A stretch of DNA of 64,000 nucleotides, from NCBI RefSeq assembly GCF_009914755.1, contig NC_060942.1. One strand, 5' to 3'. Each line of letters opens with the position of its first letter. The stretch's first letter is position 1. Positions 45,866-47,057 of the stretch are shown here, piece after piece. This DNA is from the human T2T-CHM13v2.0 reference genome, Homo sapiens. A program made the position numbers and the translations under genes. The notes below the pieces were generated by a model. The model was not told the DNA's origin. It searched no databases and saw only the letters and a program-made list of their open reading frames with translations.

Positions 45866-47057
45866 ATATCCTTTACACACCAACTGAAGCAGATGCTGTC
45901 TGCCCACCTTATAATCTAGTTTTGCTCCCACTCTCATGTCATACTTTTCAACCTTCTTTCTCTGTGTCTAACTGAAACTATGGTACATTTCCTCCTACTT
46001 CTTATCTGCACAAGTGTTTCTGGTTTGCTTAGAATATCTTCCTATTTTTATTTGAGGATGAGCTCAATAAGGATATTTTCCTTAAACACCATTTCAATAA
46101 CTTAGAAAAGTTAGAAAAAAATGTGTACTTAGAAAGTAAGAAAGCAATCATGATTCTCCTTAGCCAAGTGCTCCCTCCAGTGGCATTTCAGATACAATTG
46201 AAAGGGTTGAATTAAAAGCTTAGGTTGTAAACAAAAACAAGATTTTTCTTTTGAGGAGATTATCTAATTTTATAGGCAAATTTTCGATGATTTGACTTAT
46301 ACTTAATTGCACCCCATTGACTTAAGAAAATATCTTTTAAACAATATTTTTTAAAATCGAAATATACACACGAGAAGAGCATAAGTGCTCAGGTGAAACT
46401 CTTAAATCTTAGTACTGATTTCACCATTTCCATCTTCTGACCTGCTGGAGTTTAAAAATGGAAGAAGGAAGAGCCTCAGTGATGTCTTTTTGCATTCTTT
46501 GTTTCCTAAGCCAAACTTATTTTAATAGTAAAACTGAGGTTAACATACATCAGTTATTTTATTTCATTAGATGCCAACATGTTATTCAAAATCTACAGAA
46601 TATGTTTCATCAGAAAAAGTAACTGCTTTCTCAAAGAACTGCTTTTGCAGCTTGAATACAATCTATATGTGTTGTTTCTCTGTCCTGAATTTCTAACTGT
46701 TTTTGGAGGTGCAACCTGTTCATTGTTTATTATAATACTTATTTTGTAATTGCTAAGGCTTATAGTATCTTCCTTATAAATCGTTTTTGGAATATCACAG
46801 TTGCCTTTCCATTTAGAAAGCCATATAGTAAGATATTATGAATTGTCTTGATTTGGAATGTTAGAATAGAAGGAATGAAGATCCCTGTGAGAAAACATAC
46901 TTTCATCTGTGGATGGTATCAGATAAGCAATATAAAAGAGTTAAGATATATTTATGTGTGCCTTTTTAACATTGCTACTTTACTACTTTTTAAAATCCCT
47001 TATAAATTTCTGCCTCTTATGTAATAAAATCAGACATTGTTCTTTAACATTGTTCAG
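45866..47057 (+). other. U12-type (minor spliceosome) intron with AT-AG termini
   Basis: 5'SS ATATCCTTTA; branch site TTCTTTAAC at 47040-47048, 9 nt before the end of ...TTCAG. Frame continuity requires this join. Confidence 0.85.

What the first reader, a model, noticed from the sequence alone, without database searches (positions are those of the whole stretch)
45866..47057. Minor-spliceosome intron with rare AT-AG termini inside the PAZ-like segment
Seen: no frame-preserving GT donor follows ...GERTF. The intron starts with ATATCCTTTA, a perfect U12 5'SS. It has a U12-type branch site TTCTTTAAC (consensus TTCCTTRAC) ~10 nt from the end and no real pyrimidine tract, yet ends in AG rather than AC. 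Established: most U12 introns are GT-AG or AT-AC; AT-AG is a rare class, and U12 introns can be rate-limiting. All other introns in this gene are GT-AG.
Basis: partly seen in the sequence, partly recalled or inferred. Interest (0 to 1): 0.7.

Follow-up and report, generated by a model that had tools for sequence, protein, structure and literature searches.

The report
Minor-spliceosome AT-AG intron in C18orf63

Summary
Window 45866-47057 (1192 nt) is intron 10 of C18orf63. It begins ATATCCTTT and has TTCTTTAAC with its two A's 11 and 10 nt from the last base. It ends in AG. The other 12 introns are GT-AG. The spliced reading frame equals a deposited 685-aa human protein. The peptide across the junction is kept in 123 of 140 amniote proteins. 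No GT donor keeps the frame, and no placement that gives the same mRNA is GT-AG or AT-AC. The 5' splice site cannot pair with U1 (+1.2 kcal/mol, against -4.3 to -12.6 for the other introns). It pairs with U6atac best of the 13 and with U11 second best. Best reading: a U12-type intron of the AT-AG (A-type) subclass, confidence 0.93. The class is in print: 11 human cases in 2006. The junction is in RefSeq, so novelty is low. I could not open the minor-intron catalogues. Fold searches support the "PAZ-like" remark with modest scores. One thing is unexplained: a 12-of-14 direct repeat at the two intron junctions, which may be chance.

The parts
45780..45865 (+). Exon 10 of C18orf63 (86 nt, aa 237-265); ends ...TTCAC, with the last two bases starting codon 265
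   Evidence: Hub annotation; frame and phases checked; sequence
45866..47057 (+). Intron 10, 1192 nt, AT-AG termini, phase 2; single copy in the genome
   Evidence: Only a self-match in the whole assembly. No Rfam family at gathering score: one chance hit at 22.5 bits against a cut-off of 64
45866..45874 (+). U12-type 5' splice site ATATCCTTT
   Evidence: only + strand match to RTATCCTTT in the window. Duplex with U1 +1.2, U11 -5.2, U6atac -6.4 kcal/mol
47040..47048 (+). U12-type branch-point sequence TTCTTTAAC; candidate branch adenosines at 47046 and 47047, 11 and 10 nt before the last intron base
   Evidence: The predicted duplex with U12 snRNA is TTCTTTA/UAAGGAA, 7 pairs with one G.U
47056..47057 (+). 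3' terminal AG (where an AT-AC intron has AC)
   Evidence: The 8 placements that give the same mRNA end in AG, GA, AT, TA, AT, TC, CC or CT; none is AC
47058..47241 (+). Exon 11 (184 nt, aa 265-326)
   Evidence: Hub annotation. No second copy or processed pseudogene in the assembly
47058..47064 (+). ATATCCT repeated at the first 7 bases of exon 11. It encodes the last base of T265 plus Y266 and P267. Together with TTCA before it, this gives a 12-of-14 direct repeat of the 5' junction (45861-45874 against 47053-47066)
   Evidence: 12/14 against 3-7/14 for the other 12 introns. Random pairs of 14-mers reach 12/14 with p = 2.3e-5. T265-Y266-P267 are invariant in 47 of 47 aligned orthologues
47084..47187 (+). 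Three in-frame AG dinucleotides inside exon 11 (47084-85, 47093-94, 47186-87). They correspond to the acceptors used by orthologue gene models that skip exon 10 and so bypass this intron
   Evidence: Deleted residues 237-274, 237-277 and 237-308 in 9 models, placed on the human sequence by arithmetic

Best explanation
Window 45866-47057 is a U12-type intron, removed by the minor spliceosome, of the AT-AG subclass. This subclass is 'A-type' or AT-AN in the terms of the CENATAC paper.

Inferred mechanism, following the established pathway:
- The U11/U12 di-snRNP binds the 5' site ATATCCTTT (U11) and the branch sequence TTCTTTAAC (U12) together.
- One of the two adenosines at 47046/47047 is bulged and attacks the 5' site.
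- U6atac then replaces U11 on the 5' site.
- The first AG 10-11 nt downstream of the branch serves as the 3' site.

The sequence signals, the exact mRNA junction and its conservation are shown here. The use of the minor spliceosome is inferred. So is any slow or regulated removal in germ cells. So is the consequence of retention: a stop 7 codons into the intron, reading ...FTYPLHTN*.
For: - The intron starts ATATCCTTT and has TTCTTTAAC 10-11 nt from its end.
- The other 12 introns are GT-AG, and their best branch-motif matches have 3-4 mismatches.
- The spliced CDS is letter for letter the deposited human protein P0001.
- The junction peptide is present in 123 of 140 amniote proteins. F264-T265-Y266-P267 are invariant in 47 of 47 aligned orthologues. 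T-Y-P is kept in 89 of the 109 distant representatives that cover it.
- Only 8 intron placements give this mRNA. None is GT-AG or AT-AC, and only AT-AG carries a splice-site consensus.
- 0 frame-keeping GT donors nearby.
- With snRNA sequences taken from the same genome, the 5' site has no U1 pairing: +1.2 kcal/mol, against -4.3 to -12.6 for the other 12 introns. It has the best U6atac pairing of the 13 (-6.4) and the second-best U11 pairing (-5.2). The U12 duplex falls in the canonical register, with the single deviation from consensus read as G.U.
- Indirect evidence for conservation of the 5' site: of 19 aberrant models inspected, 8 read Y-P-(L/F/S) and then unrelated residues right after F-T. 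That is what translation into an intron starting RTATCC gives. One primate model reads FTYPLHT, the same as the human read-through.
- The class is documented: 11 human AT-AG U12-type introns in Sheth 2006 Table 2 (passages). The review PMC3584512 gives the defining features and the 11-13 nt optimum (passages).
Against: - No RNA-level or perturbation evidence can be reached here.
- The simple U12 duplex energy over the last 40 nt does not single this intron out: -4.7 kcal/mol, tied 9th-10th of 13.
- The branch motif differs from consensus at one position.
- Pyrimidine content near the 3' end (14 of 20) is not lower than in the U2-type introns of the gene.
- The review states that AT-AG combinations 'appear to be disfavored' and are poorly spliced intermediates.
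- C18orf63 does not occur in the 11 supplementary files of the CENATAC paper. Those data come from HeLa cells and lymphoblasts, so this says little.
- I could not verify the intron in IAOD, MIDB or U12DB.
- No PWM or intronIC score was computed.
Confidence: 0.93

Rival explanations
1. A non-canonical AT-AG intron removed by the major (U2-type) spliceosome, as happens for a subclass of AT-AC introns.
For: The 3' end is AG with 14 of 20 pyrimidines in -22..-3, which a U2-type 3' site could also show. U2-type introns with AT termini exist (passages in PMC6717393 and PMC8280824).
Against: The 5' site has no stable pairing with U1: +1.2 kcal/mol, against -4.3 to -12.6 for the other 12 introns. It matches the U12 consensus at all 9 positions. 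The branch motif with at most 1 mismatch sits 10-11 nt from the end, with a chance of about 0.006.
Confidence: 0.03
2. The junction is misplaced or the exon pair is mis-annotated, and the real transcript joins these exons through ordinary GT-AG sites.
For: Seventeen of 140 orthologue models do something else here. Thirteen lack exon 10 with part or all of exon 11, using GT-AG routes. Four carry extra residues after FTYPL.
Against: The annotated junction gives the deposited human protein exactly. It also gives a peptide that is invariant or nearly so across 123 of 140 amniote proteins and most distant representatives. No GT donor keeps the frame. The aberrant models delete 38-127 conserved residues of a folded domain or read into the intron. 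They look like failures of gene finders at a non-GT-AG intron, or possibly minor isoforms.
Confidence: 0.02
3. An add-on about history, not about mechanism: the AT-AG state is a one-step derivative of an AT-AC intron (last base C to G) or of a GT-AG U12 intron (first base G to A), and other species may carry the canonical form.
For: Sheth 2006 Table 3 lists 8 human AT-AG introns with mouse partners. In mouse, 4 are AT-AG, 3 GT-AG and 1 AT-AT, always differing at one position. The authors call AT-AG possible intermediates. Here the exon-10 end is TTCAC and the intron end is TTCAG.
Against: No orthologous genomic DNA could be reached. Protein models cannot tell A from G at +1, because ACA and ACG both encode Thr, and they cannot show the last intron base.
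Confidence: 0.5

Closest known systems
Human U12-type AT-AG introns listed by Sheth et al. 2006 (XPO4, ACTR10, NUP210, SCN10A, CUL4B, USP21, RAPGEFL1, INPP5B; PMC1557818 Table 3, passages read)
   Same: U12 consensus 5' site starting with A, U12 branch motif close to the end, 3' terminal AG.
   Different: C18orf63 is not in that table; I take this to be because the gene model came later. The termini of its orthologues are unknown here.
Canonical U12-type AT-AC introns
   Same: Same 5' site (ATATCCTTT), branch motif and short branch-to-3'-end distance (review PMC3584512).
   Different: The last base is G, not C.
A-type (AT-AN) minor introns that depend on CENATAC (PMC8280824, passages)
   Same: The terminal dinucleotide class: AT-AG is named among the A-type introns, 92% of which responded to CENATAC depletion.
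   Different: The response of this intron is untested. The gene does not occur in that paper's 11 supplementary files.
U2-type introns with AT termini
   Same: They begin with AT.
   Different: Those are read by U1/U2. Here there is no U1 pairing, and the 5' site is the U12 consensus.
Transposon-made U12-type introns proposed for Physarum polycephalum (preprint 10.1101/2020.10.12.336362, passages)
   Same: A direct repeat at both intron junctions, such that splicing restores one copy. AT-AG is the commonest non-canonical pair there (29%).
   Different: There the repeat is a TA target site next to inverted repeats of a multi-copy element. Here it is 12 of 14 nt, the intron is single copy, and no colinear or repeated sequence was found.

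Membership tests
U12-type (minor-spliceosome) intron | 5' splice site matching /RTATCCTTT at the first intron base | tested here: met
   ATATCCTTT at 45866-45874
U12-type (minor-spliceosome) intron | Branch-point sequence close to TTCCTTRAC | tested here: met
   TTCTTTAAC, 1 mismatch; the other 12 introns have 3-4 mismatches. The mismatch pairs with U12 as G.U in the canonical register
U12-type (minor-spliceosome) intron | Short branch-to-3'-splice-site distance (optimum 11-13 nt according to PMC3584512) | tested here: met
   The adenosines at 47046/47047 lie 11 and 10 nt before the last intron base 47057
U12-type (minor-spliceosome) intron | No distinct polypyrimidine tract | tested here: inconclusive
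   14 of 20 pyrimidines in -22..-3, within the 11-17 of the U2-type introns. Only 7 nt lie between the branch motif and the AG
U12-type (minor-spliceosome) intron | 5' site pairs with U11 and U6atac, not with U1 | tested here: met
   U1 +1.2, U11 -5.2 (2nd of 13), U6atac -6.4 (1st of 13) kcal/mol. snRNAs were taken from the same genome
U12-type (minor-spliceosome) intron | Stronger U12 snRNA pairing at the 3' end than in U2-type introns | tested here: not met
   -4.7 kcal/mol over the last 40 nt, tied 9th-10th of 13. The crude duplex energy also rewards pyrimidine tracts, so this measure is not part of the family's definition
U12-type (minor-spliceosome) intron | Classifier score (intronIC or SpliceRack PWMs) above threshold, or listing in IAOD, MIDB or U12DB | not tested
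   No PWMs were on hand and supplements could not be opened. By the MIDB rule read, a high AT-AC 5' site score alone suffices, so I infer the intron would pass
U12-type (minor-spliceosome) intron | Splicing depends on U11/U12/U4atac/U6atac | not testable with these tools
   Needs RNA data or perturbation
AT-AG (A-type, AT-AN) subclass | First two bases AT and last two AG, given the real mRNA junction | tested here: met
   Of the 8 placements that give the same mRNA, only AT-AG carries a splice consensus. The mRNA junction is fixed by the protein match and its conservation
AT-AG (A-type, AT-AN) subclass | Raised basal retention and CENATAC dependence | not testable with these tools
   The gene is absent from the paper's supplementary files
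U2-type non-canonical intron | 5' site complementary to the 5' end of U1 | tested here: not met
   +1.2 kcal/mol, against -4.3 to -12.6 for the 12 GT-AG introns
   Pfam gives only DUF4708 at E <= 1. A profile of 47 orthologues finds 0 PDB chains at E <= 10
   The human model aa 6-328 aligns to TtAgo 10-320 with Z 10.0 (251 aligned, rmsd 9.8) and to hAgo2 41-407 with Z 8.5. Foldseek E is 4.4e-7. In the fragment model (pLDDT 90.5), residues 103-215 align to stand-alone PAZ chains: Hili 3o7x_C Z 5.4 (84 aligned, rmsd 4.4), Hiwi1 3o7v_X Z 5.0 (86, rmsd 4.0), PIWIL2 3qir_D Z 4.6 (85, rmsd 4.7), Giardia Dicer Z 5.6 (89, rmsd 4.4). These Z values are modest. Mapping with an offset of +61 places codon 265 in the last strand of this segment

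The most novel reading that the evidence does not exclude
The 12-of-14 direct repeat TTCA(C/G)ATATCCT(T/C)T at the two junctions could be the scar of the intron's birth.

In this reading, a piece of DNA was inserted into a once continuous exon, ...TTC ACA TAT CCT... (F-T-Y-P), with duplication of the target site. The left copy supplied a ready-made U12 5' site, ATATCCT. The right copy supplied ...TTCAC. The new intron was therefore AT-AC and spliced out exactly, restoring the frame. A later C-to-G change at the last base made it AT-AG.

Both copies would then have been kept for different reasons: the intron copy by splicing, the exon copy by the invariant T-Y-P.

A second, weaker version: the exon-11 copy is a functional U11/U6atac binding site that affects use of this intron. 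Its predicted pairing is U6atac -7.8 and U11 -3.6 kcal/mol.
Probability: 0.05. Interest if true: 0.65.

Novelty: already known. Interest (0 to 1): 0.2.

Why it matters
Little is new in kind. U12-type introns with AT-AG ends have been in print since at least 2006, and RefSeq already annotates this junction.

Practical value:
- It marks C18orf63 as a minor-intron gene. C18orf63 is an uncharacterised gene reported as a marker of pre-leptotene germ cells (PMC12081002, passage). Its output could therefore depend on minor-spliceosome factors. The MIDB paper (PMC6717393) reports that testis expresses the most minor-intron genes, and it cites Zrsr1-mutant mice with impaired spermatogenesis.
- It explains why 17 of 140 orthologue gene models are wrong or unusual exactly here.
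- Each further AT-AG case is useful for studying switches between the AT-AC and GT-AG subtypes.

The more interesting by-product lies outside the finding: the folded half of the protein looks like the N-terminal lobe of Argonaute/PIWI.

Tried and rejected
- Processed pseudogene as a DNA record of the junction: exon 11 matches only itself in the assembly.
- Human paralogue for comparing intron positions: all 10 matches to P0001 lie in this gene. The tool used a stricter first look, so weak matches may be missing.
- Origin by tandem duplication: there is no colinear similarity between intron 10 and the 2.4 kb after or before it. The best hits are 13-15 nt at E 0.1-0.36.
- Origin from a repeat family: the intron matches only itself in the genome. 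The tool warns that very common words are skipped.
- An RNA gene inside the intron: none at Rfam gathering score.
- A second U12-type 3' site that could partner the ATATCCT at the start of exon 11 (recursive or alternative minor splicing). There are 20 sites with at most 1 mismatch to the branch motif in the gene. By my check of their positions against the exon table, only the one at 47040 lies next to an annotated acceptor. The acceptor of exon 12 has its best branch-motif match at 3 mismatches, 36 nt from the end.
- U11-binding splicing enhancer (USSE; the name appears in the review passage, the details are recalled). That element is a tandem pair some distance from the site it activates, unlike a single copy that abuts the AG. 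I did not pursue it.
- U12 duplex energy as a discriminator: it does not discriminate.
- Catalogue look-ups. The supplement search of PMC8280824 found 0 occurrences of the gene. They may well list this intron.
- Literature searches. C18orf63 alone gave 37 papers, 30 of them listed, none on splicing by title or abstract start. C18orf63 with 'spliceosome' gave 0. DUF4708 gave 0.
- Earlier findings of this scan were not open.
- Sequence-level link to Argonaute: none.
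Full report
**What is in the sequence**

Exon 10 of C18orf63 ends ...GGACCTTCAC at 45865. The next bases are ATATCCTTTACACACC. The intron ends ...CATTGTTCTTTAACATTGTTCAG at 47057, and exon 11 begins ATATCCTCTCAGTTGC.

A script over the annotated exon table found 13 introns. Twelve are GT-AG; intron 10 alone is AT-AG and is 1192 nt long. The annotated coding parts give an open frame of 685 codons. The intron lies after the second base of codon 265, so it is in phase 2.

**Is the junction real?**

- The translation of the spliced exons is identical over all 685 residues to P0001. 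P0001 is a human protein that a search of the protein collection returned for exon 12.
- Of the 140 proteins held after two searches, all amniotes by the names given, 123 contain the junction peptide pattern YP[LIV].C[IV]R after F-T.
- In an alignment of 47 orthologues, F264, T265, Y266, P267, C270 and R272 are invariant.
- The exhaustive search returned 145 further representatives, down to 26% identity. Of these, 109 cover residues 262-270 without a gap. Of those, 89 have T-Y-P and 105 have Y-P.

So the mature mRNA sequence across this junction is fixed. Because ATATCCT occurs on both sides, 8 placements of the intron (shifts 0 to +7) give the same mRNA. Their termini are AT-AG, TA-GA, AT-AT, TC-TA, CC-AT, CT-TC, TT-CC and TT-CT. 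None is GT-AG or AT-AC, and only the annotated placement starts with a splice-site consensus.

Within -30..+60 of the exon-10 end there is no GT that keeps the frame with any AG within +/-60 of the exon-11 start. The 6 frame-keeping combinations all use one GC at 45845 (AAT|GCTCGG) and would remove the conserved residues MLGERTFT.

**Which spliceosome?**

- The first 9 bases match the U12-type 5' site consensus at every position.
- The motif RTATCCTTT is not rare in itself: 2 matches on both strands against 2.08 expected, and 64 of 100 shuffles reach 2. Its coincidence with the boundary that the frame requires is what counts.
- TTCTTTAAC at 47040-47048 has one mismatch to TTCCTTRAC. The best match in the last 45 nt of each other intron has 3 or 4 mismatches.
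- On the + strand of the window, 29 of 63,992 positions match with at most one mismatch. The chance of one falling in a 14-position range before a given 3' end is therefore about 0.006.
- The two adenosines lie 11 and 10 nt before the last intron base. The review PMC3584512 gives 11-13 nt as the optimum and says either A can be the branch point (passages).

I took U12, U11, U6atac and U1 from the same genome with Rfam models and computed duplex energies for all 13 introns:

| Pairing | Intron 10 (kcal/mol) | Other 12 introns (kcal/mol) |
|---|---|---|
| 5' site with U1 | +1.2 | -4.3 to -12.6 |
| 5' site with U6atac | -6.4 (best of 13) | +0.8 to -4.0 |
| 5' site with U11 | -5.2 (second) | intron 7 at -6.0; rest -1.1 to -4.1 |
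| Last 40 nt with U12 | -4.7 (tied 9th-10th of 13) | -3.4 to -12.7 |

Two results do not single the intron out.

- The U12 duplex energy does not. The A-rich, GGA-containing part of U12 also pairs with ordinary pyrimidine tracts. The predicted duplex is nevertheless in the canonical register, TTCTTTA with UAAGGAA. The single departure from consensus is read as a G.U pair, and the next A is left unpaired.
- Pyrimidine content in -22..-3 is 14 of 20, inside the 11-17 of the other introns.

**Conclusion on mechanism**

The signals are those of a U12-type intron of the AT-AG subclass. I put 0.93 on removal by the minor spliceosome. That step, and any slow or regulated splicing, is inferred from the established pathway (review passages).

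If the intron is retained, the frame runs ...FTYPLHTN and stops. That would cut the protein at residue 271.

**Indirect evidence from other species**

No eukaryotic genome other than the window's own could be reached, so the termini of orthologous introns remain unknown. Protein models help a little.

Seventeen of the 140 models depart from the junction:

| Models | What they do |
|---|---|
| 9 | Lack exon 10 plus the first 28, 37 or 130 nt of exon 11. The human equivalents of the acceptors used are the in-frame AGs at 47084-85, 47093-94 and 47186-87. |
| 2 | Lack exons 10 and 11 together (270 nt, in frame). |
| 1 | Lacks residues 239-300. |
| 1 | Lacks exons 9-11. |
| 4 | Keep the exons but carry extra residues straight after FTYPL. 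|

I then looked at 19 aberrant or truncated models. I had chosen them because searches showed gaps at the junction. Eight continue after F-T with Y-P-(L/F/S) followed by unrelated residues, or by an early end. One primate model reads FTYPLHT, the same as the human read-through. A rodent model reads FTYPLHTGDS. Four truncated models, three of them only 35-41% identical to the human protein, stop 1-25 residues after FTYP.

This is what translation into an intron beginning RTATCC would give. It suggests that the U12-type 5' site is old. It cannot tell A from G at the first base, because ACA and ACG both encode Thr.

All of these are computed gene models, not transcripts. They may reflect gene finders failing at a non-GT-AG intron rather than real isoforms.

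**Comparison with what is known**

- Sheth et al. 2006 (passages and tables) count 11 human and 8 mouse AT-AG U12-type introns, the largest non-canonical group. All non-canonical pairs together make up 4.92% of human U12-type introns.
- Of the 8 human AT-AG introns with a mouse partner, 4 are AT-AG in mouse, 3 GT-AG and 1 AT-AT. The authors suggest AT-AG as an intermediate between the two main subtypes. C18orf63 is not in that table.
- The CENATAC paper (passages) groups AT-AC, AT-AA, AT-AG and AT-AT as A-type minor introns. After CENATAC depletion, 92% of A-type introns were affected, against 24% of G-type. The gene name does not occur in its 11 supplementary files. I take it the gene is not expressed in those cells.
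- The MIDB paper (passages) classifies an intron as minor if its AT-AC-type 5' site score alone is high and clearly best. I infer this intron would pass, but I did not compute it. That paper also reports skipping of the exons that flank minor introns, notably in testis.
- I could not open the tables of IAOD or MIDB.
- No paper in the searchable library holds both C18orf63 and 'spliceosome'.

RefSeq already carries the junction, and catalogues score every annotated intron. I therefore rate the thing as already known, with the caveat that the listing is unverified.

**The 'PAZ-like segment'**

Pfam finds only DUF4708, residues 7-280, at E 3.6e-148. A profile of 47 orthologues finds no solved structure by sequence at E <= 10.

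An AlphaFold2 model of the human protein is folded over residues 5-317 and disordered from 318 to 685. Foldseek against the PDB gives 109 matches at E <= 0.001. The rows shown, apart from one MED13 chain (8tqc_D, the CDK8 kinase module), are Argonaute and PIWI proteins, with a best E of 4.4e-7. The second-look aligner gives:
- model 6-328 to Thermus Argonaute 10-320: Z 10.0, 251 aligned, rmsd 9.8;
- a rigid core: Z 10.0, 168 aligned, rmsd 4.6;
- human Argonaute-2 residues 41-407: Z 8.5, 177 aligned, rmsd 4.2.

To place the junction I folded P0231. This is a 221-residue fragment model that equals human residues 66-268 plus a short tail and has FTYP at 203-206. The model has pLDDT 90.5. Its residues 103-215 align to stand-alone PAZ structures:

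| Structure | Z | Aligned | rmsd |
|---|---|---|---|
| Hili 3o7x_C | 5.4 | 84 of 107 | 4.4 |
| Hiwi1 3o7v_X | 5.0 | 86 of 107 | 4.0 |
| PIWIL2 3qir_D | 4.6 | 85 of 115 | 4.7 |
| Giardia Dicer 137-253 | 5.6 | 89 | 4.4 |
| Human Dicer platform-PAZ | 4.9 | 79 | 3.1 |

These Z values are modest, and the tool warns that Z under 8 can be a common arrangement. They are, however, consistent across PAZ domains, and they sit where PAZ sits in the colinear match to whole Argonautes.

With the offset of 61, the PAZ-like segment is about human residues 164-276. Codon 265 lies in its last strand (262-267).

**An unexplained detail**

The 14 bases around the 5' junction (TTCAC|ATATCCTTT) and around the 3' junction (TTCAG|ATATCCTCT) agree at 12 positions, including 7 in a row from the first intron base and the first exon base. 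The other 12 introns give 3-7 of 14.

- Random pairs of 14-mers from the window reach 12 of 14 with p = 2.3e-5. They share the 7-mer with p = 1.3e-4.
- The exon copy encodes the invariant T-Y-P. Given those residues and the gene's own codon use, the chance of these exact bases is 0.09.
- With roughly 770 human minor introns (MIDB count), about 0.1 such case is expected by chance. So this may be coincidence.

The boldest reading is that the repeat is a target-site duplication from the insertion that created the intron, which would originally have been AT-AC (...TTCAC). A transposon route to U12-type introns has been proposed only for Physarum (preprint passages). The review knows one novel U12-type intron in animals. 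Against this reading, the intron is single copy, shows no similarity to its flanks, and seems old. I give it 0.05.

**Verdict**

The thing is a further case of a known, rare subclass at an annotated junction, so it is of low interest as a discovery. It is useful as an annotation note for a germ-cell gene whose folded half resembles the N-terminal lobe of Argonaute.

Noticed in passing
window 21417-47241 (coding exons 2-11, aa 1-326): The folded half of C18orf63 (Pfam DUF4708) resembles the N-terminal lobe (N, L1, PAZ, L2) of Argonaute/PIWI and MED13. Foldseek best E is 4.4e-7. VIA gives Z 10.0 to Thermus Argonaute 10-320. A PAZ-like part lies at about aa 164-276. No MID or PIWI part was seen, and aa 318-685 are predicted disordered. 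There is no sequence-level link (Pfam, PDB profile) and no paper holds 'DUF4708'. One paper reports the gene as a marker of pre-leptotene germ cells..
   Followed up: partly
window 45861-45874 and 47053-47066: Direct repeat TTCA(C/G)ATATCCT(T/C)T at the two junctions of intron 10: 12 of 14, against 3-7 of 14 in the other 12 introns. It makes the junction placement ambiguous over 8 positions. It also means that read-through into the intron encodes the same T-Y-P-L as exon 11. This may be chance.
   Followed up: partly
window 47068-47069, 47084-47085, 47093-47094, 47186-47187: Several AG dinucleotides lie inside exon 11. The first is 12 nt after the annotated acceptor and would keep the frame from exon 10. 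The other three keep the frame when exon 10 is skipped, and 9 orthologue gene models use their equivalents. Skipping exons 10 and 11 together (270 nt) is also in frame and occurs in 2 models.
   Followed up: partly
proteins P0002-P0131 and P0148-P0281 (orthologue models): Many deposited or predicted orthologue proteins are wrong or truncated exactly at this junction: 17 of 140 amniote models, plus several distant representatives that end at ...FTYP or ...FT. This looks like a systematic annotation problem caused by the non-GT-AG intron.
   Followed up: partly
window 44432-44440, minus strand: GTATCCTTT, the G-type form of the U12 5' site motif, lies on the opposite strand in intron 8. It is within chance expectation (2 found, 2.08 expected) and no gene is annotated on that strand.
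   Followed up: no
window 46322-46356: A small AT-rich repeat sits in the middle of intron 10: period 14, 1.9 copies, with a short inverted self-match.
   Followed up: no
window 34492-34503 (start of intron 7): The 5' site of intron 7 (GAG|GTACCATATATT) has weak U1 pairing (-5.7) and the best U11 duplex energy of the 13 introns (-6.0). It lacks the TATCC core and has no branch motif near its end (4 mismatches), so I read it as a weak U2-type site.
   Followed up: no
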